From Salinivirgaceae bacterium (GTDB lineage Bacteria; Bacteroidota; Bacteroidia; Bacteroidales; SZUA-534), in NCBI GenBank assembly GCA_017474765.1, contig JAFVGW010000060.1, positions 1,427 to 65,426 on the forward strand: a DNA stretch of 64,000 bases, written 5' to 3'. Both the position numbers and the translations under genes were made by a program. Shown here one piece after another: positions 5,449 to 56,500 of the stretch; the stretch's first letter is position 1; each line of letters starts with the position of its first letter. The notes under the pieces were generated by a model. The model was not told the DNA's origin. It saw only the letters and a program-made list of their open reading frames with translations, and searched no databases.

Positions 5449-8400
5449 TTAATTCTTCTTCCGCAGAATATAAATCGTATTCGATGTGTAGCGGTCGTTC
5501 TGAATGGTCTCAACGGTCATTCCGAGTGCGGCGGCAATCTGGCGCATACGCGTTTCCGACAGAAAGCAGAGCCGCTCTTCGGTCTTGTTGAACTTGATGA
5601 TGCGCGTCGACATTAGTTCGGTAAAGCGTGTCAGGCGGTGGCGCTGCTGCTCTTCGGTGTTGCCGTCGCGGATGATAATCTGGCCGCCGTCGGCAAGGGC
5701 TGCCACACACTTCTCAATCAGTTGCTGCTGATGGTCGGCGCTCATATAGTGCAGCATATCGTTCATTATGAACACATCGCTCTGCGGCAGCGGATATTCG
5801 AGCGCGTTGGCCTGCTCGAACCGCAGATGGCAGTGCTGGCGAAGCCATCCGTGCTGCGCCACGGCAATCTTGTCGTCGTCGTAGTCGATGCCCAGAATGT
5901 CGCGGTCGGCCGATGTCTGCGCAAGCATATAGCACAGCGGACCGAAACCGCAGCCAATGTCGGTGATGCGGGCGCGGCGCGGTATCAGTTTGTCGAACAA
6001 CTCGTAGTTGCCTTCCATACGGATTTTCACGCGCAGATACCACTCTTCGACAGGCCCTTTGAAGATGAAATTGTGCATTATGCGGCTGTGGATGGCCGTG
6101 CTCGACGTGGTTGTAAGTTCGTCGTAGAGTTTTTGGTATTCGGCTTTGAACCAGGCCGATATGCGTTTGGTTCGTTCCTGGTAGGTGTCGCCCCACGAGC
6201 GGTCGGTGTGGCTGATGCGCGGCAGGACGCTCACCACAATCCTTCCGCGCCGAACCATAAACGGCTGGTTTTTCGGTATCACATCGCCAGTGCCGTAGAG
6301 CAGCACGGGCACAATGTCGAGCCCGAGCGTGTCGGCAAGCATAAACGCGCCTTTGTGGAAGCGTCCGATGCGTCCGTCGGCCGAGCGTGTGCCTTCGGGG
6401 AAGATGACCACCGAAAAGCCTTCGCTGATGCGCTGCCGCACAGTTTCCTGATTCAGTTCAACGCCGTCGCCCGTGAAGATGAATCCCGCATAGCGGATGA
6501 GTCCGCCAAACACAGGCGACCTCCATACCCATTTGTTGGTCACCATCACCACGCGCGGCGACAGGGCCAGCATCGACAGTATGTCCATAAACGACTGATG
6601 GTTGGCGATGACCACAGCGGGGTGGTCGAAAACCTGACTGTCAACGAGCCGTTTGCTGTACCGCACCTGTCGCGACACAGCAAAAACAAATCGGCACGCT
6701 AGGTTCATCAGTCGGCAGATGAGCCGCCGCTTCCATATCCGCCTGACGGGCACCAAATACATCACGAAAGTGAGCAGCCGCAGCACAATGCAACTCAGCA
6801 CAAAGGCGCCGAAGCCGATGAAGGTCAGCAGCACGTCGGCCACGGTGTACGGCATATTGCCCTTTGCGGCGGGGTTGGCAATGAAGAAGTTGAAGATGAT
6901 GGGCTGAATGGTGAAGGCCACAAGCACCACGGCCAGCATTCCGAACATCGAAAGCAGCGAAATGGACTGAAGCGCAGGATGTTGCGCGAACACCAGCGCG
7001 CCCATTCCCACCACAATGGTGAATGCAGAGCAGAAAATGGCTGTTTTGTGCGAGTCAAGTGTCTGACGGCCAGTGCGATACTTGCTCTGAAGGCCGTCCA
7101 TTATGAATATGCTGAAATCGTCGCCAATGCCGAATATGAAGGTCGAAAGAATGATGTTGATGATGTTGAACTCGATGCCGAACAACCCCATCATTCCCAA
7201 AATGATGAACCAACTGATGAGCATCGGCAGAAAACTCATCAGCGTGAGTTCGAGCCGACCGAACGAGATGAGTAACGCAAAGAAAATCAGGAACGAAGAC
7301 GTGAACAGAATCCAATTGAAGTCGTCGTTCACAGCGTCAATCCATTGGCCAGTGAAGAAGGCGCGGTCGAAAATCACCATATCGCGGCTGTCGCTCATCA
7401 GGCTGTAAACCTGCTGTTTGCACGTGTCGGCCAAACGCACTTGCGTGATGAGCATCTTTGAGTTGTCTGACGGCACCTGCCATTCCTGCATCAGCGTTCC
7501 GAACGGGCCGTTGGTTCGGCTCAGGTCGACGGGCTCGAAATCGCCGTCGAACCATCGGTGGAAACTGCTGAAGGCGCTGGCTTTGAAGTGATAACGCTCG
7601 GCTTCGCTCTGCAGCGATTCGTTCAGAATCTGGCGGCGTTCCGTTGTCCAGAAATCGCGCCACAGCGCAATGCGCCGCCGTTGCTCGCTGGGGCTCACCA
7701 CAAATCGGCTGGCCGATGCGTAGTCGCGAATCAGCCCTGCCTGCCGCAGGCTGTCGAGTCGGGCGTTGATGCGGTTGTAGACGGTCAGCACCGAATCGTC
7801 GGTGGGGGCCACGCTCACAAACATCACCGTCTTCTCGTCGCCGTCGTAGTACGATTCCAACTTCTCACGGGCCGCCTTCAGGTGCTCGGGCTCGTAGTAC
7901 ATATCCATCAGGCTGCTGTTGAAGCGCACGTGGCCCGCGGTGAAGCAACTCACCACAATCACAACCAGCAGCGCGCCCACCAGCCAGCGGTTCCGCTCGT
8001 AGTGGTAGGCGTTGATTTTTTCGATGAGCCGCAGCATCCGTCCGCGTTTCACATCAGCCTGACCTTTAAGGAAATGCGGAAGAAAAATTAGGCAGAAAAG
8101 CGTGGTGCCGATGAGCGTGAGTGAAGCGAAAAGCCCGAAATCGCGCAGCAGCGCCGACGATGTGAAAACCAGCGCAAAAAAGGCACCGATAGTGGTGAAA
8201 CTGCCCACCGTGAGCGGGTAGGCCAGTTCGTCGATGAGTTGCTCGACAGTGCGTACGTGGTTCTGGTGCGCCAGCATATGGATTGAGTAACTCAACGCAA
8301 TGCCGATGACCGCCGCGCCCGCCCCGATGGCTATTGATGAGATTTCGCCTTTCAGCAGGGTAATGAGCGCCAGTGCGAAAAGACAGCCGAAAAGTGCGGG

Positions 8401-9294
8401 GACGATTATCAGTGGAACGGTGCGTTTGCGTTTGAAAATGAGCGAGATGAACACCACAATCACAATCAGCGCCACGATTGAAGTCAGCGCCGTATCGTTC
8501 TTGATTTGCCGCGCGTTGTAGACGCTCACCGACGCCCCGCCGAAATACTCGGTTTTGACGCCCGTGTGCATCTTGTTCATTTTGTTGATGTTATCTTCGA
8601 TGATGGTTACAAGTCCTTCGTTCTCACCGATGCGCCCCATATTGTATTTTGGCGTCAGCACCATCATCAAGGTCGATGTGTCGGCGGTGAACAGGTAACT
8701 ATCAACCACCACGTTGTCCGATTCTATCTCGAAATCTTGCAGATTCTCAAGTGTTTGCAGGCCCATTCCCATCGGGTCGCGCAAGATGAACTGCCGCGAG
8801 CCCACGCCGATGGGCGACACCAGGTTCTGGTAGTTCTCGCGCATCCGACTGGCAATGCCGTCGCGGGTGATGATGGTGTCGAGCCGCACATAGTCGCTGT
8901 CGGTCAGGAAGATGGGTAGATGCGCATAGACGAAATCGCTCACCCCGCCAATCATCTGGTTGTCGATGCGCAGCAGAATTCCGTTCAGGTAGTCGGCGGC
9001 TTCGGTCTGCAGGATTTGCTCAAGTTCTTCGGCTGCTTGAATCAGACTGTCGGCAGGCTCACCCGCACGCGGCGAGAATAGTACCACAATCTTATCCTTA
9101 ACGTTCAGATTCTGAAATACTTCGGCGGTCTTGTCGTTGTCGCCTGCCGCAGGAAAGAAATCGGTTACGTTCTGCCTGAAACTGATTCGCGACACAGCCA
9201 CGGCCATCAGCGCAATGCTGACCACCAAAAAACTGTAGAACAGCACTTTGCGGCGCTCGAAAAAGTGATAGAGACCTATGAATATTTTGCTCAT
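5449..9294 (-). CDS. Trifunctional fusion: MMPL/RND-type transporter + lysophospholipid (1-acyl-glycerol-3-P type) acyltransferase + class I SAM methyltransferase
   Basis: The ORF is open to 9351 (TTG); I start it at the ATG giving MSKIFIGLYHFF. The N-terminal ~830 aa have two blocks of transmembrane helices of MMPL type. The acyltransferase HX4D motif ANHQSFMDI lies at ~6584-6605 and FPEGTRS at ~6380-6403. The SAM motif DIGCGFGP lies at ~5940-5965. Confidence 0.85.
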   Translation of the reverse strand: MSKIFIGLYHFFERRKVLFYSFLVVSIALMAVAVSRISFRQNVTDFFPAAGDNDKTAEVFQNLNVKDKIVVLFSPRAGEPADSLIQAAEELEQILQTEAADYLNGILLRIDNQMIGGVSDFVYAHLPIFLTDSDYVRLDTIITRDGIASRMRENYQNLVSPIGVGSRQFILRDPMGMGLQTLENLQDFEIESDNVVVDSYLFTADTSTLMMVLTPKYNMGRIGENEGLVTIIEDNINKMNKMHTGVKTEYFGGASVSVYNARQIKNDTALTSIVALIVIVVFISLIFKRKRTVPLIIVPALFGCLFALALITLLKGEISSIAIGAGAAVIGIALSYSIHMLAHQNHVRTVEQLIDELAYPLTVGSFTTIGAFFALVFTSSALLRDFGLFASLTLIGTTLFCLIFLPHFLKGQADVKRGRMLRLIEKINAYHYERNRWLVGALLVVIVVSCFTAGHVRFNSSLMDMYYEPEHLKAAREKLESYYDGDEKTVMFVSVAPTDDSVLTVYNRINARLDSLRQAGLIRDYASASRFVVSPSEQRRRIALWRDFWTTERRQILNESLQSEAERYHFKASAFSSFHRWFDGDFEPVDLSRTNGPFGTLMQEWQVPSDNSKMLITQVRLADTCKQQVYSLMSDSRDMVIFDRAFFTGQWIDAVNDDFNWILFTSSFLIFFALLISFGRLELTLMSFLPMLISWFIILGMMGLFGIEFNIINIILSTFIFGIGDDFSIFIMDGLQSKYRTGRQTLDSHKTAIFCSAFTIVVGMGALVFAQHPALQSISLLSMFGMLAVVLVAFTIQPIIFNFFIANPAAKGNMPYTVADVLLTFIGFGAFVLSCIVLRLLTFVMYLVPVRRIWKRRLICRLMNLACRFVFAVSRQVRYSKRLVDSQVFDHPAVVIANHQSFMDILSMLALSPRVVMVTNKWVWRSPVFGGLIRYAGFIFTGDGVELNQETVRQRISEGFSVVIFPEGTRSADGRIGRFHKGAFMLADTLGLDIVPVLLYGTGDVIPKNQPFMVRRGRIVVSVLPRISHTDRSWGDTYQERTKRISAWFKAEYQKLYDELTTTSSTAIHSRIMHNFIFKGPVEEWYLRVKIRMEGNYELFDKLIPRRARITDIGCGFGPLCYMLAQTSADRDILGIDYDDDKIAVAQHGWLRQHCHLRFEQANALEYPLPQSDVFIMNDMLHYMSADHQQQLIEKCVAALADGGQIIIRDGNTEEQQRHRLTRFTELMSTRIIKFNKTEERLCFLSETRMRQIAAALGMTVETIQNDRYTSNTIYILRKKN

Positions 9295-9424
9295 TGCTTG
9301 TGTGCCCCGTTTGGGAAAATCTTCAAAAGAATTTTTGGCAAATGTAACCAATTAGGTATGATAAGCGAATTGTTTGTAGGGTGGAAAGGTGAAAGTTTTT
9401 TGGGATTTGAAAAAACAGTGGTAT

Positions 9425-22024: not shown

Positions 22025-23380
22025 TCACAAATCCCTGACTACCGATGGCAACAAATAAATGGGTTTGTTGACTAAGGCACCTTCGCAGGAAACATCTTTC
22101 GGCGAAATCAAGTATTGCCTGCCAACAAATTGCGAGTATTTCAAGGCAAACTGCGTGATTGACTCGTGGTTTCGGATTGACGAAGACTTAATTTCAATCG
22201 GGACAACCTTGTTTTTGGATGTCAGCAGAAAATCGATTTCATAATAGTGTGTGCTGCCGTCCTTCTGCCTAGTGTGATAATATAGTTTTCGGCCGCTGGA
22301 TGCGATGACTTGAGCGGCTGCATTCTCGAACAAATATCCCAAATCAGCGTCCAACTTGTCGGAAATCAACTTTTTGTAGATGTCCGACTGGGGCGTGTCC
22401 GAATTGTTGAAAAGCATTGTCACAAAAAGCCCTGTGTCAGACAGATACAATTTGAATTTATCCACATCGCGCGTCTGACTCAGGCCGACCGACGGCTGCG
22501 TGATATGATAGCACGGCATAACCGTCTTTGAATCAATCAAATCGAACAACCGTTCTTCGTCTTTCACGGTTTTTTGCTTGCCCGTTGCCGCCGACACCAC
22601 AAAACGTTTCCGTTTCAGCGCAAGCTGACTTGGAACCGAATTGAAAATGTCTGACAATCTGCCCGATGGGTCGATTTTCTTCAAATCATCGATATACAAA
22701 CCTATAATCTCGCGTTTGATTTTGTCGATTTCCTCGAAATTCTTTTTCCGCACATACGCGTCAACGGCCTGGGGCATACCGCCGACAGCCATATAGATGC
22801 GGAAATTGCGCATCAGCGTGCGATTGACGGCGTTCCCCACAGGCAAGCCCGTTTCGTACAGTTGCCTCAGATTGTCGGCATTACCCTGTGTCGCCCACAG
22901 AAACTCTTCGTAATCCATCGGGAAAACATTGATTTTGTGCTCTTCCGACGGGATAAGTATGTCTTTCACATTTTTCTTTATCGAGATGAGCGACCCCGTC
23001 TCAATGTAATCGTATCTGCCATCTTTCACAAGATGCTTAATTGCCTGACGCGCACGGGGATACAGCTGAATCTCGTCGAAGATTATTACGGATTTTCTCT
23101 CGTGAAGGGTGACATTGGTCTCTGCCTGAAGTTTCAAAAAAAACAAATCCAAATTCGTGATGTCTCTCATTATCTCAAGCATCGCCGTTGTGGCTTCTGA
23201 AAAATCGATTTTGATATACGATTTGTACTCGTTTTGGGCAAAATGCTCAGCAATGGTTGTCTTGCCAACACGCCTTGCGCCCTCAAGCAGACACGCGTAT
23301 CGTCCCGCATAATTGTTTTTCCACTCTAAAAGTTCGTTGTATGCCTTTCTCTTGAACATATCAGATTCGATTCTAAACAT
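22025..23380 (-). CDS. AAA+ ATPase with C-terminal DUF4143-like domain
   Basis: It has Walker A in LEGARRVGKTT and Walker B in VIIFDEIQ. The C-terminal end, YEIDFLL...VPIEIKS, resembles a restriction-endonuclease-like fold. An alternative start lies at Met8 (23359). Confidence 0.85.
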   Translation of the reverse strand: MFRIESDMFKRKAYNELLEWKNNYAGRYACLLEGARRVGKTTIAEHFAQNEYKSYIKIDFSEATTAMLEIMRDITNLDLFFLKLQAETNVTLHERKSVIIFDEIQLYPRARQAIKHLVKDGRYDYIETGSLISIKKNVKDILIPSEEHKINVFPMDYEEFLWATQGNADNLRQLYETGLPVGNAVNRTLMRNFRIYMAVGGMPQAVDAYVRKKNFEEIDKIKREIIGLYIDDLKKIDPSGRLSDIFNSVPSQLALKRKRFVVSAATGKQKTVKDEERLFDLIDSKTVMPCYHITQPSVGLSQTRDVDKFKLYLSDTGLFVTMLFNNSDTPQSDIYKKLISDKLDADLGYLFENAAAQVIASSGRKLYYHTRQKDGSTHYYEIDFLLTSKNKVVPIEIKSSSIRNHESITQFALKYSQFVGRQYLISPKDVSCEGALVNKPIYLLPSVVRDL

Positions 23381-23615: not shown

Positions 23616-24696
23616 ATGATAACCGGACGAGACGAAGAAAAAAAACTTTTGCAATCGTTGCTCGAAAGCGACAAATCGCAAGGATATTGTTCTGATTGTC
23701 TGTGGAAGCGCCACATCGTGGATTATCAATAAGATAGTGATGAATTATGGCGGATTGCACAACCGCCTGACACGCCAAATCTACATTGAACCGTTCACTC
23801 TGCACGAATGCGAACTATACGCCGAACAACGCAACCTTGGAATGAGTCGGCGCAACATTCTTGAAACCTATATGGTGCTGGGTGGCATACCATTCTATTG
23901 GGACTTTCTGCGCAAAGACCTGTCGTGGGCACAAAACATCGACCATCTTTTCTTCCGAAAAAACGGCGAAATGCGCCGCGAGTTCGACGCCCTCTACTCT
24001 TCGCTGTTTCGCAACCCGCAACCTTACCTCAGAGTGGTTACGGCGATGGGCACCCGAAAGGCCGGAATGACACGCTCTGAGATAATCAACGCGTTGGGCG
24101 AAGACCACGGCGGTACCTTAACACGCACACTTAAAGATTTGGAAGAGTGCGACTTTATCCGCTCGTTCACATCGATTGGAAAGGTAAAAAAGGAAACCAT
24201 CTACCAACTTATTGATAACTTCACGCTGTTCTACTTCAAATTTATGGCCGGCAACACTGGCGGCACCGACTATTGGCTGCAAACAGTGCGCAAACCTGTT
24301 TATAGTGCGTGGAGCGGCCTTGCATACGAGCGTGTCTGCCTGCAACATATCAGACAGATAAAGAAGGCATTAGGCATTTCGGGAATCATAAGCAATGTGT
24401 GCTCGTGGTCGTATCGGCCAAAGGATAGCGATGAAACCGGTGTACAGATTGATATGCTGATTGACCGCGACGACAATGTGATAAACGTGTGCGAGATAAA
24501 ATTCTCGCAAGACGAGTTTGAACTGACATCCGACTATGAACGCAACATAAGGCACAAAGCGAGTGTATTCCAAAGCAAAACCGGTACGCGGAAGGGCGTT
24601 TCGGTGACAATGATAACATCGTATGGCCTGATTAAAAACCAATGGTCGAATGGCATCCAAAACCAACTCACGATGGATGACCTTTTCACTGACTGA
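23616..24696 (+). pseudogene. AAA-ATPase family gene with internal deletion and frameshift (P-loop region missing)
   Basis: The ATG at 23616 gives MITGRDEEKKLLQSLLESDKSQ and then runs to a stop. The +1 frame, open from 23623, reads DIVLIVCGSATSWIINKIVMNYGGLHNRLTRQIYIEPFTLHECE... and continues to 24696. No GxxxxGK[ST] Walker A motif is present anywhere. The ORF track only sees 23737..24696. Confidence 0.7.
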
Positions 24697-24766: not shown

Positions 24767-25016
24767 TTTTATGTATTCATTATCTATATCACTGATTAAC
24801 AGCGCGTTTATTTGGCATTATTTATGTAATGTCCCGCAACAATGTCCGCTCCTCGCCGCCTGCAGATACGTGGCGCGCCGCGTCTCTACGTTTGGTGCAC
24901 CCGATTTTAACCCTGCAAGACCGCCAACCACGTCTTATTTTCGCACAATCCCAATTACTATCGGGGAACACAGTTTTTTGAACGCAGATGATGCCATATT
25001 TTATGATTATTCGGAA

Positions 25017-25514
25017 TCAACTACTACTTGTTTTATCAACATCCCCACCTTGGTTATGTATGTCCTTCCATATTTCCGAAATAAAATATATAAGCAGTAC
25101 TAATGAAAATAGAATAAATAAAATATCCATTACATAGGTTGGGGTGTCTGTCCAAACTATTTTTCGATTTATAGATAATTGTTTTATAAAATGATGACTT
25201 GCCGAACGTCTAAATTTACCACTCCCATAATAGTCGTATAGGATTTCAGCATGTTTCCCCGTATCTAATTCCGTAATAGCACTTCTGTCATTTAGTATAT
25301 ATTCTGTATAATCACCTTTGAGCTTTATGTAAGTGCCACCGTCTGTATAGTGGATTTTTTTTATTGTGCCCGATACTAATTTGTAATGCCGTATTTTTAA
25401 ATAATCATTTAGCGACATTGACATATCGCATAGTAAATATACTATAAGCCAAACAAAGCCTATTACGCCTACAACATAGAAGAGTATTCCCACTCTATTG
25501 TAACTATTTTTCAT
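25017..25514 (-). CDS. Small membrane protein, TM-beta-rich-TM layout (DUF3592-like); possible immunity protein
   Basis: A 165-aa AT-rich gene overlapping the upstream gene by 11 nt. It has N- and C-terminal hydrophobic helices flanking KLVSGTIKKIHYTDGGTYIKLKGDYTEYIL. Confidence 0.6.
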   Translation of the reverse strand: MKNSYNRVGILFYVVGVIGFVWLIVYLLCDMSMSLNDYLKIRHYKLVSGTIKKIHYTDGGTYIKLKGDYTEYILNDRSAITELDTGKHAEILYDYYGSGKFRRSASHHFIKQLSINRKIVWTDTPTYVMDILFILFSLVLLIYFISEIWKDIHNQGGDVDKTSSS

Positions 25515-27123
25515 TGGCTATTTCATTTAATGACTTTATAAAATCATCTATTTTTTTATCTTCTTCAGATAATAGATTGGCGGTACTATACGTTTCCCAA
25601 GCAGCGCATAACGCAGTAATTTGGTCTTTGTGTTTTAGTATGTCTGCTTGTCGTAAGTTGGTTATGTCAAGTACAGTCCAAAGTGTCTCCCACATTAAAT
25701 AAAATCGTTCCCAATTCTTGTCATCTCTACCTTTCTGATTATTAATATAAGTTATTGTTGGTTCGGTTAATAATCTTAATGTACTAATCGATGTGAGTAT
25801 AAATTTAGCACCTACTTGAGTAGCTGTTTTGAGTTCTCCCACCCCTATAACAAAAGAAGCAATAGTAGTTAGAGCATCAATAGCTTCCAACAAATCGTCT
25901 TTGTTCTGTTTAGAAATCAAATAATCGAAAAAGAACGCAGGCATAGGGTATATTTGATTATCTGCTTTAAGATTACATAAATTTCCTTCGCTCATATACA
26001 CACCTATCAATTCCGTCATTGATATGTCTTCGTTCACAAGAGTTACTTCTCCTTGATAAATTGGTGCTTGCCCCTGTAAAGTCCATTTTTTTACCGTACT
26101 CTTAATGTGTAAACGATTTTCTCTCTGTGACAATACAAATGTGATTTCATCTCCCGCCCCTGTAAAATCTATACCTCTATGCCAAGTGTAAACATGCTGC
26201 ATATTTGCAACTCTTTCCTTGATGTCGCTTTGACTGAAATATGCAAGTGTCAGATATTTTATAAAATCCTCATATTCCGAACTTTTCAATTTGTTTTTTA
26301 ATTTGAATAGAATATCTGTTTTTTCTAAAGCATCAAAGAACGTTGCAACATTTTCAGTGTTGACATTTTTTGCAACCAACAAAATTAGACGGGCACAATC
26401 CGCATTAATATTCGAAGCACACACTCCTGATAGTATATTGATTCGTTGATTATTAGTAATCACACCAAAAGCATCATCGGGTAGAGCAGAGAGATTTGAC
26501 CAATAACGATTCTTTATCATGAAATCAATGCCTTCACCCCAATTGGCTGCATCAGGGCATAAAATGTACTTTCGGATAGATTCGTGTTGTTCTTTAGTTG
26601 TTTCATATTCAACTGCATAGACTTGGCGCGTCTGCCCGTGGTCTAACAATCCAAAACCACTGCGCAGTTTGGTGTCGTCAAGTGCAATAAATGGCTTCGA
26701 CATCTCACAAGTCTTAAGATTCAAATTTTGTTGGTGTTTGGATTGAATACTTGTAACAAGATAATCGTATTTGATACCATTACCAAGTACAATATTCTTA
26801 GATATTCCGCTTTTCCTTGGTTCGCATAAGAAATCTCTTCCAAAGGCATAAGAAAATCGCAAAGACTCAATAATTGAACGATTTACAAAGAAATCTCCAT
26901 CCAAGAAACTATCCCCCTCCTCATCATCCACCAACCACCTAACAATACCTTCCTGCGGATTGTGGATATAGTCCCACTGGTATTTGTAGAGTTCTGAGTT
27001 GGTGCCGTTGTAGTCCATAAGGTTGCGAGTGGTGCCCTGCTGCGCGGTGTAAAGGTTCTCACTGCTGAAGGTGTGCCACAGGCGGAAGGCGCCGTGGGAG
27101 GTATGTGTTCGCGTTGTTGTCAT
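25504..27123 (-). CDS. Hypothetical 539-aa protein beginning with a degenerate zincin metallopeptidase fragment; function unknown
   Basis: The N-terminus is THTSHGAFRLWHTFSS...TTRNLMDY. This resembles HExxHxxGLxHTF...N[FYL]MDY of M43/pappalysin-like zincins, but with the Glu replaced and everything upstream missing. The remaining ~470 aa are AT-rich and show no motif I recognise. Confidence 0.6.
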   Translation of the reverse strand: MTTTRTHTSHGAFRLWHTFSSENLYTAQQGTTRNLMDYNGTNSELYKYQWDYIHNPQEGIVRWLVDDEEGDSFLDGDFFVNRSIIESLRFSYAFGRDFLCEPRKSGISKNIVLGNGIKYDYLVTSIQSKHQQNLNLKTCEMSKPFIALDDTKLRSGFGLLDHGQTRQVYAVEYETTKEQHESIRKYILCPDAANWGEGIDFMIKNRYWSNLSALPDDAFGVITNNQRINILSGVCASNINADCARLILLVAKNVNTENVATFFDALEKTDILFKLKNKLKSSEYEDFIKYLTLAYFSQSDIKERVANMQHVYTWHRGIDFTGAGDEITFVLSQRENRLHIKSTVKKWTLQGQAPIYQGEVTLVNEDISMTELIGVYMSEGNLCNLKADNQIYPMPAFFFDYLISKQNKDDLLEAIDALTTIASFVIGVGELKTATQVGAKFILTSISTLRLLTEPTITYINNQKGRDDKNWERFYLMWETLWTVLDITNLRQADILKHKDQITALCAAWETYSTANLLSEEDKKIDDFIKSLNEIANEK

Positions 27124-27339
27124 AGGTCAAAGTTAAGAAACTTTTTACTGATTGTAAAGACGTTGCGGAAGGTGAAATGGTTGCGGAAACAATGGCGGAA
27201 TTTTCAGCACTTGCGCCAAAAACAACAGAATTGGGAATATTAGGAACAGAATTTTACAAGAGCTTTATAATCAAATTTTTATAATCAATTTTCTTATAAT
27301 TTCTCGCGCCACGAAACGCAAATTGTCCACTGTCAATTA

Positions 27340-28473
27340 TCAATTGTCCGAAACAATCAACTCTTCCATAATCTCGTCCGAGACAAAAATTCCGCTGTGG
27401 GTGAGTTTCAGGTGGTTAGCCGCATATTCGAGACGGCCGTCGCGGACAAAGCTCTCAGCCTGACGGCGCAGATAGTCAACCATTTGGCGCGGTTGCTCAA
27501 GCTGCAAGTAATCCATATCAATTCCCGCCGATGTGCGCAGGGCGGTAATCACATAATCGTTGAAAATGTCGGTTGGCGACAGCGTTTCCGTTTCGCTCAC
27601 GCAACTGCCGGCTTCAATGCCTTTAATGTACTCGGCCGTGTTGGCGGTGTTCCAGCTTCGAGTGGTGCGGTTGTAGGAATGTGCTGCAGGTCCGATGCCA
27701 AGATAAATGGTTCGGTCCCAATAACTTGAATTGTGCCGCGAGCGGAATCCAGGGCGGGCGAAGTTTGAAATCTCGTAATGTTCAAAATAGGCCGTTTTGG
27801 CCCAGGCAGTCAGAATCTCAAACTGCTCAAGACTCTCATCTTCCGACACTTCGGCCAGCTGCCCGCGCTTGAGTTTCAGACTGAAAGCCGTGCCTTCTTC
27901 ATACGACAGGTGGTAAGCCGACAGGTGCTGCACGCCGAGCCCTGCAACCGTGTCGAGCTGCTGCCGCCAGTCGTCGGCCGTCATTCGGGGCAGGCCGTAA
28001 ATCAAATCAACGCTGATGTTGCCGAAGCCCGCTTGTTGGCAGTTGAGCACGGCATCGATGGCTTGTTGCGCGGTGTGTCGGCGGTTCATCAGCTCGAGCA
28101 TCGCATCGTCGAACGACTGAATGCCGATGCTCAGGCGGTTGGCGTCAGTCTGCGCAAGTTGGCCGATGTAAGTCGGTGTCAAATCATCAGGGTTGGCTTC
28201 AACGGTGATTTCTGCATCGGGCGATACGCTGTGCAGCTGCTTTATTGTGCCGATAACCGACTGAATATCAGCGGGTTCGAGCAGCGACGGTGTGCCGCCG
28301 CCAAAGTAGATGGTCTGCACCGGCTCGCCGTTCAGATAATGGCGCCGCCCGTCCAGCTCTTTCTTCAAGGCTTGCAAATAGCTGTTTTTCAATTCCAGCC
28401 GCGTGGTGGAATAGAAGTTGCAATAACCGCATCGGCGCTTGCAGAACGGAACGTGAATGTATATGCCGGCCAT
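27340..28473 (-). CDS. hemW: Radical SAM heme chaperone HemW / oxygen-independent coproporphyrinogen oxidase family
   Basis: I start it at MAGIYIHVPFCKRRCGYCNFYS (CxxxCxxC). The ORF track extends 30 codons further upstream across the secG terminator. Confidence 0.88.
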   Translation of the reverse strand: MAGIYIHVPFCKRRCGYCNFYSTTRLELKNSYLQALKKELDGRRHYLNGEPVQTIYFGGGTPSLLEPADIQSVIGTIKQLHSVSPDAEITVEANPDDLTPTYIGQLAQTDANRLSIGIQSFDDAMLELMNRRHTAQQAIDAVLNCQQAGFGNISVDLIYGLPRMTADDWRQQLDTVAGLGVQHLSAYHLSYEEGTAFSLKLKRGQLAEVSEDESLEQFEILTAWAKTAYFEHYEISNFARPGFRSRHNSSYWDRTIYLGIGPAAHSYNRTTRSWNTANTAEYIKGIEAGSCVSETETLSPTDIFNDYVITALRTSAGIDMDYLQLEQPRQMVDYLRRQAESFVRDGRLEYAANHLKLTHSGIFVSDEIMEELIVSDN

Positions 28474-28560
28474 TTTCCTAATAGTTTTCAAGGCAAAAAT
28501 ATCAATTTCTGCAGGTTGGCAACCACATGATGGCCATGAAAGAAGTTTAGGCAGGCAGCA

Positions 28561-28586
28561 CAAAAAAAGCCAACCTGCAGGTTGGC
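28561..28586 (-). terminator. secG intrinsic terminator
   Basis: A perfect palindrome GCCAACC-TGCA-GGTTGGC at 28569-28586 is followed on the minus strand by T7. Confidence 0.8.
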
Positions 28587-53544: not shown

Positions 53545-56500
53545 ATGAAACGCATTTTCACACTATTGTTTGCCGCGATGCTTGCTGGGCAGGCTTGGGC
53601 ACAGACTACTTTCACCGTCAACAATCTGGAATACACCATTATCGAAGGCACAACCAATGTCACGATTGGCACTACTGGCGAAGAACTACCAGCAGACCTT
53701 GTTATTCTGTCGGAAGTAACGAATGGAGGCATAACCTATACGGTTACTGGTTTTAGTGAATTTGCATTTCAGAATTGTAACTATCTGAAAACAGTTGCAA
53801 TTCCCAATACATTTACAAGCATTGGTGAATTTGCATTTCAAAAATGCCACAGCCTCGAATCAGTTGACATTCCTAATAGTGTTACCATCATTGGAGAAAG
53901 AGCGTTTGAACAGTGTGAAAAGCTTGCATCAGTCACGCTCCCCGACCATTTAACTGAAATATGTAATCTCGCATTCGACAATTGTACAGGGCTGACAAAC
54001 TTAATAATACCCATTTCAGTCACAACCATTTCCAGCAACGCTTTTTATCGCTGTAGTAACATCAGCTTTTATTGCGAGGTGGAGGAAGAATCAGAACCTG
54101 CAGGCTGGGGAAACAACTGGGACAAAGGTAGGCCTATTGTTTGGGGCTACAACGCCAATCCACAAACGTGGACTGTAACCCTTTCATCCAACAATAACGC
54201 ATACGGCACCGTATCGGGCGGCGGCACTGTAGCCAATGGCTCAACAACAACCATTACTGCAACCCCCGCCGAAGGCTACGTTTTTTTGATGTGGAGCAAC
54301 GAACTGACAACCGCAACTGCGACCATAACAGTTACTTCTGACACAACAATTGTGGCAGAATTTGCAGAAAACAAACCCTTAGTTGCAAGCGAATTGCATT
54401 ACGAAATCACAAGCGACAGTACAGTTAAAGTGGTATTTTCAAATGACTATTGGTATTTCACATCTATTGTAATACCAAACACGACCATTATTGACGGCAA
54501 GGTTTATTCGGTTACTAGCATCCGTGATTATGCTTTCCAGAATTGTAGAAATCTAATATCAGTTGCCATTCCAAATACGGTTACGTACATTGGTGAAAAT
54601 GCATTCTATGGTTGTGACAAACTGACAGATATAAATGTTGAAAGCGGAAACACAAAATACTCATCGGAAGATGCTATTCTGTTTAACTGCGATAAAACAA
54701 CATTAGTGCGTTATCCGTATAATAAAGTCGGTGCATACACCGTTCCTGAATCAGTTACAACCATTGGGGATCTGGCGTTTTACCTATGCGAACAATTGAC
54801 TTCAGTTGTCATTCCTAATTCTGTTGAGCGCATTGAATATGGCGCATTTGAAGGATGTTCAAATCTTGCATCAATATCCATTCCCGAAAGTGTAACGACA
54901 TTGGGGAGCTGTGTATTTCAAACGTGTATAAGTCTGACATCGATAACTATTCCAAATTCTATTACTGAAATTCCATTCTACGGATTCAGAAGTTGTGAAA
55001 ACTTAACCACAATCAGCCTGCCTAACACAATTACAGATGTTGACAATACTGCTTTTGAAGGTTGTGATAAGTTAAAATACAACGAGTATGATAATGGTTT
55101 GTATTTGGGAAACACAGAGAATCCGTATCTTGTACTGATTAAAGCAAAATCAACCAACATTACCTCCTGCGAGATAACCGACAAATGCAAAGTAATTGCT
55201 ACCGGGGCATTCTCTGGTTGCAGCGAACTGACATCAATCACTGTGCCCAATTCAGTTCAAAATATCGGCTGCGGAGCCTTTTCTGGTTGCTCCTCTCTGC
55301 AATCAATGACGTTACCATTTGTGGGCGACCGAAGACACTCCTACACCGATTCCCACCAATATCCTTTCGGTTATATTTTCGGTTACGAAAGTTATGAAGG
55401 TGGTGTCGCAACTTCGCAATGGTACAGATATTACGATAACACCAGTTCTATGGGTAGCACATATTATATACCATCATCATTGAAATCGGTAACTTTAACA
55501 GACTGTGACTATATTCAATATGGAGCCTTTGACGATTGCAGTAATCTGACTTCGATAACCATTCCAACATCTGTAACGCATATAGACGGTAGCGCTTTCA
55601 ATAGTTGTAGCGACAGTCTGACTATTTATTGTGACTTGAAATCGGCACCAAGAGGCTGGGAGCTGTATTCCTACAACATTGTATGGGGCACAGTAGATGT
55701 TGTCGATTCCAACAACGTGGATGCGGCTGGTTTTGCATATAAAATCATCGATGGAACAAGTGCGGAAATTATCGACTATACAGGTTCTGATACTGTAATC
55801 GCAATTCCAAGCACATTTACTAAAAATGGTGTTGAATACACCGTTATTCGCATCGGCGACAATGCTTTCAATTCATACAAGGATATGAAATCTCTAACCA
55901 TACCAAACACAGTCACAAGCATTGGTAATAAAGCATTCTCTAAATGTCATGGCCTTACTTCGGTAGAAATTCCAAATTCTGTAACAACCATCGGCAGCGG
56001 AGCATTTGAGTATTGTTACAACCTGGCTTCGGCCATAATTCCCAATTCTGTAACAAGCATCGGCAACTCTGCGTTCTATAATTGTTACAACCTGACTTCG
56101 GTAGAAATTCCTAATTCGCTTACCAGCATCAGTAATCAAATGTTCTCATATTGCAGCAGGTTATCTTCGATAACCATTCCGAATTCTGTGACAAGCATTG
56201 GTAAAAATGCGTTCTCCTGCTGCAACAACTTAACTACAATTAACATTCCCAATTCAGTCACATGCATTGGTGAGTCGGCGTTCTACGGAAGCGGTTTGAC
56301 AAATATTTCTATTCCTAATTCAGTCACATACATTGACTGGAGAGCATTTAGTGATTGTAATGATCTAACTTTTATTACTATACCAAAATCCGTTGAAAAG
56401 ATGAATTGGAATATTTTCGTTGATTGCCCAAACGTAACAATTTATTGCGAAGCGGAATCTAAACCAGAAGGTTGGGTTGAAGGTTGGAATTCTGACAATT

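What the first reader, a model, noticed from the sequence alone, without database searches (positions are those of the whole stretch)
25017..27123. AT-rich two-gene cassette: degenerate zincin fragment fused to an unknown 470-aa domain, plus a small membrane protein (orphan toxin/immunity-like)
The 539-aa ORF starts with ~60 residues of host-like G+C: THTSHGAFRLWHTFSS...NLMDY...YQWDYIHNP. This resembles the distal half of a zincin active site, HExxHxxGLxHTF...NxMDY, but the catalytic Glu is replaced and no upstream domain exists. At about 26940 the composition drops abruptly, by eye to roughly one-third G+C. It stays low through the rest of the ORF and the overlapping 165-aa TM-beta-TM gene. 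Orphan cassettes of polymorphic toxin systems have the same layout. They carry a short conserved recombination handle from the pre-toxin region, a variable C-terminal domain and a downstream immunity gene. I recognise no motif in the large domain. If it is active, it may represent an undescribed effector family.
Basis: partly seen in the sequence, partly recalled or inferred. Interest (0 to 1): 0.7.

Follow-up and report, generated by a model that had tools for sequence, protein, structure and literature searches.

The report
Orphan polymorphic toxin–immunity gene cassette
This is a stranded, head-less copy of a bacterial warfare toxin gene with its protective membrane-protein partner, from a Bacteroidota toxin family linked to type IX secretion; the kind of element is ordinary, but the toxin domain and the immunity protein match nothing described.

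Summary
Two overlapping minus-strand genes (539 aa, 25504-27123; 165 aa, 25017-25514) sit in a 32-35% G+C block. It starts sharply at 26917, after a 53% G+C head of 69 codons.

The head is the distal part of a metzincin-like domain. Full-length relatives (1000-1900 aa) carry an intact HExxHGxFxLxHTF…NLMDY…YKYQWDYIHNP motif, and a model of that domain matches fragilysin and archaemetzincin. Those relatives have a signal peptide, a weak TANFOR-like N-terminus, Fn3, an acidic linker and hypervariable C-termini. They are followed by small genes and lie beside T9SS cargo genes.

The window copy starts inside the active-site helix, so it is neither a peptidase nor secretable alone. The same handle precedes unrelated C-termini elsewhere. 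At one chromosomal site, exactly the toxin C-terminus plus immunity gene is swapped between strains. Loci with only the immunity gene exist.

The C-terminal domain is a rare, unannotated family: 42 cluster representatives among 1.84 billion proteins and no PDB fold match. Each family locus examined has a TM-loop-TM gene downstream. A membrane-targeting action is my inference, not shown.

This is a new member of a known kind, of moderate interest.

The parts
27124..27186 (-). Non-coding leader shared by the 'short-form' orphan genes. It includes TAACTTTG (27128-27135), which fits the Bacteroidetes -7 promoter consensus TAnnTTTG as I recall it and ends 4 nt before the ATG.
   Evidence: The alignment of the window with L002, L075, L077 and L078 shows conservation from about 63 nt upstream of the ATG. 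No coding homology was found by blastx. Promoter function was not tested.
26917..27123 (-). Handle: codons 1-69. It is the remnant of the C-terminal part of a metzincin-like pre-toxin domain (HGAFRLWHTFS…NLMDYNGT…YKYQWDYIHNPQEGIVRWLVDDEE) and ends in an acidic linker.
   Evidence: It is 80-94% aa identical to proteins with unrelated C-termini. DNA identity is 85-89% to full-length genes and 92-96% to other short forms, and all alignments stop at 26912-26917. G+C is 53%, against 35% downstream.
25831..26916 (-). Toxin C-terminal region, body (aa 70-431). It is a confidently modelled beta / helical-repeat / beta domain. It ends in the family's most conserved block, PMPAFFF…TIASFVIGVGEL, which is a small-residue-rich hydrophobic helix.
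   Evidence: AlphaFold pLDDT is above 90 for about aa 80-400, falling below 60 after about aa 410. It is 67% identical to P0002 over aa 10-431. dN/dS is 0.12. No Foldseek hit had E<0.05 in PDB or BFVD.
25507..25830 (-). Hypervariable helical tail (aa 432-539) of the toxin. It is the part that changes together with the downstream gene.
   Evidence: It cannot be aligned with P0002's tail (pN 0.55) although the body is 67% identical. P0039 combines a P0002-like body with a window-like tail, joined at GVGEL. The model shows helices at 441-538 with pLDDT 70-87.
25017..25514 (-). Putative immunity gene: 165 aa, with two transmembrane helices (aa 10-28 and 128-146) flanking a loop of about 100 aa. 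It overlaps the toxin stop by 11 nt.
   Evidence: ORF and overlap are, hydropathy. Seven homologues at 67-92% identity exist. Immunity-only loci are L071-L073. dN/dS is 0.24 against L071. The same architecture lies downstream of other members of the toxin family.
24834..24947 (-). REP-like intergenic repeat about 70 nt downstream of the cassette, with core palindrome ACGCGGCGCGCCACGT. It marks the 3' side of the cassette but is not specific to such cassettes.
   Evidence: It is 90-91% identical to copies after the cassettes in L078 and L077, and it is present in L011 (twice) and L008. It was also found in 8 metagenome loci without a handle, one of them beside a protein I judged RAYT-like by eye; that protein was not scanned. 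Its fold is not unusually stable (z -0.62).

Best explanation
The two genes are an orphan (5'-truncated) toxin-immunity module of a Bacteroidota polymorphic toxin family.

The full-length toxins of this family are 1000-1900 aa proteins. They have a signal peptide, a divergent TANFOR-like N-terminus, Fn3, a metzincin-like domain, an acidic linker and a hypervariable C-terminal toxin region. They are encoded next to T9SS cargo genes, and each is followed by a small gene.

The window copy begins inside the metzincin active-site helix. It has no signal peptide, no delivery region and no HExxH. I therefore infer that it cannot be a peptidase and cannot be exported on its own.

Its roles are inferred as follows:
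- Its handle of about 200 nt lets homologous recombination move the toxin C-terminus plus immunity gene into a full-length gene or another slot, and so changes the strain's weapon.
- Its immunity gene protects the carrier against neighbours that deploy this toxin.

The toxin itself has three parts: a body of about 340 aa with no detected relative, a conserved glycine- and small-residue-rich hydrophobic helix, and a variable helical tail of about 100 aa. The cognate protein is a two-TM membrane protein, and the toxin family lacks a conserved catalytic-type residue set. From this I infer that the toxin acts at the target's cytoplasmic membrane from the periplasmic side, by depolarising or pore-forming, and that the immunity protein blocks it there. 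I hold this sub-claim at about 0.35 confidence.
For: Shown:
- The handle is shared at high identity by proteins with unrelated C-termini. The junction is sharp at 26917 and coincides with the G+C step. Metagenome contigs share only the handle and diverge at 26917.
- The metzincin fold of the intact domain is, and the weak Reprolysin/M43 profile hits are.
- T9SS cargo genes lie directly upstream: SprB plus Por_Secre_tail, PKD plus Por_Secre_tail, and CHU_C with PorP/SprF-OmpA. Sub-threshold TANFOR hits occur in 9 of 23 N-termini. This matches the neighbourhood described for TANFOR toxins (PMC7073777).
- L005 is an orphan array.
- L002 and L075 occupy the same chromosomal site. Their flanks are 95-97% identical, and exactly the toxin C-terminus plus immunity gene is replaced.
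- L071-L073 keep an immunity homologue with only the last 23 toxin codons before it.
- The body and the immunity gene are under purifying selection (dN/dS 0.12 and 0.24).
- The tail and the downstream gene change together while the architecture stays the same.
- The most conserved columns of the toxin family are P395-A-F-x-F, S423, G427, G429, L431, W478 and W509. There is no conserved His/Cys/Ser set.

Inferred:
- Non-export of the short form.
- The reservoir role.
- An N-in/C-in topology of the immunity protein with a periplasmic loop, from the positive-inside rule applied to the sequences.
- The membrane target.
Against: - No full-length parent lies in the 64-kb window. The organism's genome was not among the species representatives scanned, so a recombination partner in this genome is unproven.
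- Eight short forms begin at the same MT[TA]TRTH codon, with a conserved leader and a promoter-like TAACTTTG. This could mean that they are expressed in their own right.
- No RNA data could be found.
- Toxicity and immunity are untested.
- The hydrophobic segment is only moderately hydrophobic (Kyte-Doolittle 1.66 and 0.99). AlphaFold is unsure of aa 417-448.
- Sequence links between the immunity-like proteins of different loci are weak.
Confidence: 0.75

Rival explanations
1. The short form is a working gene in its own right. It is transcribed from its conserved leader. Its product is either handed to a full-length toxin or T9SS partner in trans through the retained handle, or it acts inside the producer like a toxin-antitoxin pair.
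For: Eight proteins share the identical start MT[TA]TRTH. A leader of about 60 nt with TAACTTTG next to the ATG is conserved across at least three chromosomal contexts. The 539-codon ORF is intact. Short forms occupy stand-alone sites away from any full-length gene. Jana et al. noted toxin domains encoded separately, downstream of TANFOR genes.
Against: There is no signal peptide or other export signal in a diderm. The first 74 residues are modelled as disordered. The shared start can be explained by common descent plus cassette swapping behind it. No expression data exist.
Confidence: 0.13
2. The cassette is a dead relic. Both genes are decaying leftovers of a past toxin locus and have no present function.
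For: The toxin gene is truncated. The neighbouring ATPase gene is also truncated. In another sample (L074) the small gene carries a 14-codon in-frame deletion that falls in TM2.
Against: Neither ORF has a frameshift or stop, despite 32-35% G+C. The immunity gene shows dN/dS 0.24 and is kept even where the toxin has been lost. The locus is 99.95% identical in an independent sample and is present in many gut metagenomes.
Confidence: 0.08
3. The pair is a phage-defence or other conflict system unrelated to interbacterial toxins, given that it lies beside candidate defence genes.
For: The adjacent genes match PADLOC candidate systems PDC-S01 (22025-23380) and PDC-S27 (truncated, 23629-24696).
Against: Neither gene of the pair matches any PADLOC model. 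The head is homologous to secreted full-length toxins whose C-termini include CHAP-like and Peptidase_C39_2 domains.
Confidence: 0.03

Closest known systems
TANFOR-domain polymorphic toxins of Bacteroidetes (Jana, Salomon & Bosis 2020, PMC7073777)
   Same: Both are large proteins with a Sec signal and Fn3. Both are encoded immediately downstream of SprB-repeat or CTD-bearing T9SS cargo genes, have variable C-terminal toxin domains and are followed by immunity genes. A TANFOR-like N-terminus is detectable in 9 of 23 relatives.
   Different: The TANFOR hits are far below the curated cut-off (best 25 bits against 67; best E-value 8.6e-7). That paper's main text does not mention a metallopeptidase domain or orphan cassettes. 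Here the conserved pre-toxin element is a metzincin-like domain. The window gene itself has no N-terminal domain at all.
Orphan toxin-immunity modules of CDI (cdiA-CT/cdiI) and Rhs systems
   Same: Both are 5'-truncated toxin genes that keep a short stretch of the conserved pre-toxin region and are followed by a cognate immunity gene. Both are AT-rich relative to the host, are exchanged by homologous recombination, and have immunity-only derivatives.
   Different: Here the handle comes from a peptidase domain and ends in an acidic DDEE(G) linker, not from VENN or PxxxxDPxGL motifs. Many of these orphans sit alone at separate chromosomal sites, with a shared start codon and leader, rather than in arrays behind the parent gene.
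PVC-metallopeptidase (HExxHxxQ-E) releasing peptidase of polymorphic toxins (Zhang et al. 2012, PMC3482391)
   Same: Both are zincin-type domains placed directly N-terminal to variable toxin domains, and both are plausibly autoproteolytic 'releasing' peptidases.
   Different: The clade and motif differ. This domain has three His ligands plus an NLMDY Met-turn-like motif and a metzincin fold match. It gave no DUF4157-type hit. Its genomic context is T9SS cargo genes, not contractile-injection loci.
Metzincins: fragilysin/BFT, archaemetzincin, pappalysin/ulilysin family M43
   Same: They share HExxH…H…HTF and N.MDY-like motifs. The beta-sheet plus active-site-helix fold of the intact domain in relatives matches.
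   Different: The third His is 7 rather than 6 residues after the second (HELGHGAFRLWH). No curated family threshold is reached. In the window only the distal third of the domain survives.
Pore-forming or ionophoric interbacterial toxins with integral-membrane immunity proteins: colicins A/E1/Ia and CdiA-CT of E. coli EC93 (from my own knowledge)
   Same: They combine a C-terminal helical region containing a hydrophobic helix with a small polytopic membrane protein as immunity.
   Different: No sequence or fold similarity was detected. The body of about 340 aa has no counterpart. The activity is untested.

Membership tests
Polymorphic toxin system, orphan module | Conserved pre-toxin segment joined to C-terminal regions that are unrelated between loci | tested here: met
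   Handle of 69 aa is 80-94% identical in proteins with CHAP-like, DUF5675, C39_2, DUF1062 and unannotated C-termini. The DNA junction is at 26912-26917.
Polymorphic toxin system, orphan module | Small gene immediately downstream that varies with the toxin C-terminus (immunity position) | tested here: met
   There is an 11-nt overlap in the window. A small ORF follows all but two (L041, L055) of the 22 full-length genes listed. The tail and the downstream gene change together.
Polymorphic toxin system, orphan module | Truncated copy lacking the N-terminal secretion and delivery region, with full-length paralogues or homologues elsewhere | tested here: met
   The ORF starts at the equivalent of about aa 835 of the 1606-aa L008 protein. 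The parent is not in the window. The rest of this genome was not available.
Polymorphic toxin system, orphan module | C-terminal domain is toxic and the downstream protein neutralises it | not testable with these tools
   This needs expression assays.
TANFOR-class polymorphic toxins | N-terminal TANFOR domain (TIGR02542) at or above the curated cut-off | tested here: not met
   The window gene has no N-terminal domain. In full-length relatives, 9 of 23 give sub-threshold hits with a best E-value of 8.6e-7. The best score seen was 25.3 bits against a cut-off of 67, with near-full model coverage.
TANFOR-class polymorphic toxins | Neighbourhood enriched in SprB, Fn3, PKD and T9SS C-terminal-domain proteins | tested here: met
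   This holds for the relatives L008, L011, L027, L032, L018 and L014. It does not apply to the orphan's own site, which lies between a HemN-like gene and ATPase genes.
Metzincin metallopeptidase | HExxHxxGxxH zinc site and catalytic Glu | tested here: not met
   The window protein lacks the first His and the Glu; its sequence is TRTHTSHGAFRLWH. Relatives have HExxHGxFxLxH, with the third His at +7.
Metzincin metallopeptidase | Metzincin catalytic-domain fold | tested here: inconclusive
   It is met for the intact domain of relative P0022: the top 14 Foldseek PDB hits are metzincins with E from 7e-5 to 3e-3, though the model's mean pLDDT is only 59.6 and just the core, about aa 131-270, is well above that. 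The window fragment is modelled as disordered.
Pore-forming toxin with membrane immunity | Hydrophobic helical hairpin able to insert in membranes, with loss of membrane potential | not testable with these tools
   Only hydropathy is available: aa 411-429 score 1.66 and aa 434-452 score 0.99. There is also a conserved TIASFxIGxGEL block.

The most novel reading that the evidence does not exclude
The C-terminal region would be a new, non-enzymatic membrane-attacking toxin fold, and its two-TM partner a new immunity family. The parent family would define a T9SS-linked delivery route. In that route a metzincin-like domain cuts the toxin free at the acidic linker, and a conserved beta-barrel-like protein of about 575 aa, encoded just upstream in many loci, helps export. 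The stand-alone short forms, with their shared start and promoter-like leader, would be expressed units rather than silent spares. Polymorphism would be nested, with a second exchange point at the GVGEL helix inside the toxin.
Probability: 0.2. Interest if true: 0.7.

Novelty: new member of a known kind. Interest (0 to 1): 0.45.

Why it matters
Interbacterial toxins shape gut and rumen communities. In Bacteroidota outside the T6SS they are barely explored, and only one paper found here describes the T9SS-linked TANFOR class. This cassette gives three testable items:
- an unannotated toxin domain with a confident model but no structural relative;
- a matching family of two-TM immunity proteins;
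- a conserved metzincin-like pre-toxin domain, which could explain how such toxins are released.

The element as such, an orphan toxin-immunity module, is a well-known kind. The gain is therefore in parts and mechanism, not in concept.

Tried and rejected
- Pfam, NCBIfam and PADLOC scans of both window proteins gave nothing meaningful.
- PDB sequence searches found nothing: phmmer with the toxin, and a profile of the metzincin-like domain.
- Foldseek of the 539-aa model against PDB and BFVD gave only weak helical-repeat noise, with E of 0.06 or more.
- A Pfam scan of 34 toxin-family members gave no recurrent family.
- The leader upstream of the ATG has no coding homology to the family. The sigma-70 promoter and terminator scan was uninformative.
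- I suspected that the conserved 3' repeat (24834-24947) was a dedicated cassette end or a structured RNA. I rejected this because it is not unusually stable, has no Rfam match and occurs at 8 loci without any handle.
- No RNA-seq run holds the gene.
- Laying low-depth metagenome contigs on the locus added only two handle-only contigs.
- The window's own genome is not among the GTDB representatives scanned, so the parent gene could not be looked for.
- I rejected the reading of the pair as a conserved core gene pair. The toxin C-terminus and immunity gene differ between strains at one site, and homologues sit in unrelated neighbourhoods.
Full report
**The observation.** On the minus strand there are two overlapping ORFs: 25504..27123 (539 aa) and 25017..25514 (165 aa). 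The overlap is 11 nt. An in-frame TGA sits directly before the ATG at 27123. The 216 nt up to the HemN-like gene (27340..28563) carry no coding similarity to the family. The window is 48.7% G+C. The first 69 codons are 53.1% (GC3 0.71), the rest of the toxin ORF is 35.2% (GC3 0.29) and the small gene is 31.9%. The composition step lies at 26917 rather than about 26940.

**What the head is.** A search of 5.8 billion proteins found 31 relatives. Most share only the first ~70 residues, at 80-94% identity, and then continue into unrelated C-termini. These C-termini include CHAP-like (P0003, P0018), DUF5675 (P0012), Peptidase_C39_2 (P0026) and DUF1062 (P0015) domains.

Longer relatives read NRTIAHELGHGAFRLWHTFS, so they have an intact HExxH. 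A scan of one genome per species gave 63 loci in Bacteroidales, Cytophagales, Saprospiraceae and Solitalea. These encode full-length genes of 1000-1900 aa with the motif 470-900 residues from the start. In an alignment of 22 such domains, H, E, H, G, H-T-F, N-x-M-D-Y, K-Y-Q-W and a Pro are invariant. An acidic DDEEGE-like linker follows.

No curated family threshold is reached. Even so, 13 of 22 members give weak Reprolysin_5 hits (best 2.4e-5), 7 give Reprolysin_4 hits and 6 give Peptidase_M43 hits. I modelled the domain from P0022. The mean pLDDT was 59.6, and only the core (about aa 131-270, ending in the active-site helix) was modelled well above that. The model's top 14 Foldseek PDB hits are all metzincins. 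They include fragilysin/BFT at 7e-5 and archaemetzincin at 1.6e-4, with MMP-1 and PAPP-A further down.

Homology of the window gene to full-length genes begins at codon 9/10 (window 27098). The gene therefore starts inside the active-site helix. It keeps the second and third His positions and NLMDY. It lacks the first His, the Glu and the whole N-terminal subdomain. It cannot be an active peptidase.

**The parent family.** The Salinivirgaceae locus L008 encodes a 1606-aa protein with an N-terminal signal-peptide-like sequence and an Fn3 domain. The metzincin-like domain is at about aa 575-900, and about 700 further residues follow. This gene lies directly downstream of a SprB-repeat protein of more than 2480 aa with a T9SS sorting domain, and it is followed by a small ORF.

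Other loci show the same kind of upstream neighbour:
- SprB plus Por_Secre_tail in L011, L027 and L032;
- PKD plus Por_Secre_tail in L018;
- FG-GAP plus CHU_C together with a PorP/SprF-OmpA protein in L014.

A small ORF directly follows all but two (L041, L055) of the 22 full-length genes listed. Nine of 23 N-termini give sub-threshold, near-full-length hits to the TANFOR domain TIGR02542 (best E-value 8.6e-7).

This is the neighbourhood and architecture reported for TANFOR polymorphic toxins by Jana et al. 2020 (PMC7073777). That paper's main text mentions neither a metallopeptidase domain nor orphan cassettes. The nearest published concept for the peptidase is the 'releasing' PVC-metallopeptidase (HExxHxxQ-E) of Zhang et al. 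2012, which belongs to a different zincin clade.

**Evidence that the window pair is an orphan module.**
- No second copy of the handle or of a full-length gene is in the window.
- L005 shows a classic array: the end of a toxin gene, a 199-aa gene, an orphan with a disrupted HExxH, a 163-aa two-TM gene, and then a fragment of the family's N-terminal region.
- Eight proteins start at exactly the same point as the window gene, MT[TA]TRTH. They share about 60 nt of leader, including TAACTTTG four bases before the ATG.
- Two of these, L002 and L075, occupy the same chromosomal site, between an HSDR_N_2 gene and a TonB-dependent receptor gene. Their flanks are 95-97% identical. The segment from the end of the handle to the stop of the small gene is unrelated. 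This is cassette replacement with defined ends.
- L071-L073 carry a 72%-identical homologue of the 165-aa gene, preceded by only the last 23 codons of the toxin. These are immunity-only derivatives in unrelated neighbourhoods.
- Metagenome contigs match only the handle and diverge at 26917.
- The locus recurs at 99.95% identity in another sample (L074) and in several gut metagenomes.

The pair is therefore not a conserved core pair.

**The toxin region.** A full HMMER search of 1.84 billion cluster representatives, using a profile of aa 70-539, found only 42 proteins at E of 0.001 or better. Where the protein is long, the match lies at or near its C-terminal end.

The AlphaFold model has mean pLDDT 79.3, and pLDDT is above 90 for about aa 80-400. 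It shows, in order:
- a helix;
- a six-stranded sheet;
- a helical-repeat bundle (aa 177-306);
- a second sheet (aa 310-395);
- a long helix (aa 396-429);
- a low-confidence stretch (aa 417-448);
- a helical tail (aa 441-538).

Neither PDB nor BFVD holds a match better than E of about 0.06. No Pfam family recurs among 34 members.

The best-conserved columns are P395-A-F-x-F, S423, G427, G429, L431, W478 and W509. There is no conserved His/Cys/Ser set.

Against P0002 (L001), the body (aa 10-431) is 67% identical, with dN/dS 0.12. The last 108 residues cannot be aligned. P0039 joins a P0002-like body to a window-like tail at GVGEL. This shows a second exchange point inside the toxin.

**The small protein.** It has two strong hydrophobic helices, at aa 10-28 and 128-146. 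Its seven homologues have no annotation. dN/dS against L071 is 0.24.

Downstream of every other toxin-family member I could inspect (L001, L020, L026, L031) there is a 150-175-aa protein of the same TM-loop-TM design. Some weak sequence links join them, up to about 22 bits. Positive charges flank both helices on the N- and C-terminal sides. By the positive-inside rule the loop should face the periplasm; this is an inference.

**Mechanism.**
- Shown: membership of a polymorphic toxin family, truncation, a sharp handle, cassette swapping, immunity-only derivatives, and purifying selection.
- Inferred: the short form is not exported, it serves as a spare toxin tip, and its immunity gene is the part in daily use.
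- Further inferred (about 0.35): the toxin acts on the cytoplasmic membrane from the periplasm, and the hydrophobic helix and tail are the business end. This rests on the membrane-embedded partner, the co-variation of the tail, and the absence of catalytic-type conservation. It is analogous to pore-forming colicins and the EC93 CdiA-CT with their membrane immunity proteins (my own knowledge).
- Inferred: in the full-length proteins the metzincin-like domain plausibly releases the C-terminus at the acidic linker.

**Rivals.**
- Independent expression of the short form is the serious rival, because of the shared start and the promoter-like leader. It could not be tested, since no RNA runs were found.
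- A dead relic is unlikely, given intact frames in AT-rich DNA and selection on the immunity gene.
- A phage-defence role is unsupported.

**Verdict.** The element is a new member of a known kind. It carries an undescribed toxin domain and immunity family, and it points to a metzincin-like pre-toxin domain that I did not find described for this toxin class. Interest is moderate.

Noticed in passing
window 24834-24947: A GC-rich intergenic repeat of about 114 nt, with the palindrome ACGCGGCGCGCCACGT, lies about 70 nt after the cassette. Near-identical copies follow other toxin-immunity cassettes (L078, L077, L011 twice, L008). It also occurs at 8 unrelated metagenome loci. One of those is beside a protein whose sequence looked RAYT-like to me, though it was not scanned. 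The repeat looks like a lineage-specific REP-type element.
   Followed up: partly
window 22025-23380 (-) and 23629-24696 (+): The cassette's left neighbours match PADLOC candidate defence families. One is a full-length AAA_14/DUF4143 ATPase (PDC-S01, 8e-93). The other is a PDC-S27-like ATPase that lacks about the first 116 residues, judged against a 477-aa homologue in L081. The cassette therefore sits in a small conflict-gene island.
   Followed up: partly
L074 2035-2490, against window 25084-25120: In an otherwise 99.95% identical locus from another sample, the immunity-like gene is 151 aa instead of 165 aa. By my coordinate arithmetic the missing ~14 codons fall within the second transmembrane helix (aa 128-146). 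This could be a real loss-of-function allele or an assembly artefact.
   Followed up: no
L014 5480-7201; L030 5027-6745; L043 5751-7475; L067 5760-7478; L055 5717-7498; L054 342-2069; L023 6688-8421; L057 1541-2185: A conserved protein of about 575 aa lies directly upstream of the full-length toxin gene in loci from both Bacteroidales and Cytophagales. It has a signal peptide and a beta-barrel-like C-terminal end. It has no Pfam family, only a weak OMP_b-brl_3 hit in one copy. It may be a dedicated outer-membrane partner of these toxins.
   Followed up: partly
L002 1589-3305 against L075 5328-7053: Two strains carry the same chromosomal slot and the same handle but different toxin C-termini and immunity genes: an unannotated type plus a 162-aa gene in one, and a CHAP-like type plus a 204-aa gene in the other. 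The exchanged block runs exactly from the end of the handle to the immunity stop codon.
   Followed up: yes
L005 1656-2981 and P0018: A second class of orphans keeps about 35-40 residues upstream of the handle. In these, the HExxH is replaced by H-VPMAIGI-AH, with IAH duplicated. The catalytic Glu is therefore lost in two independent orphan classes.
   Followed up: no
L008 7490-12310 and P0019 (C-terminal ~250 aa): In some relatives the small-residue-rich hydrophobic segment is followed by a further soluble domain. Its last motif (…GGGHQYEI) reminded me of TNT-type NAD-glycohydrolase toxins. This is from memory only and was not tested. If true, the hydrophobic segment would act as a translocation element.
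   Followed up: no
window 53545-59460 (+): A 1971-aa protein carries ten BspA-type leucine-rich-repeat stretches and six divergent InlB B-repeat domains. It is a large surface-protein candidate unrelated to the finding.
   Followed up: no
window 5449-9351 (-): A 1300-aa ORF combines MMPL-like, acyltransferase and SAM-methyltransferase domains in one polypeptide.
   Followed up: no
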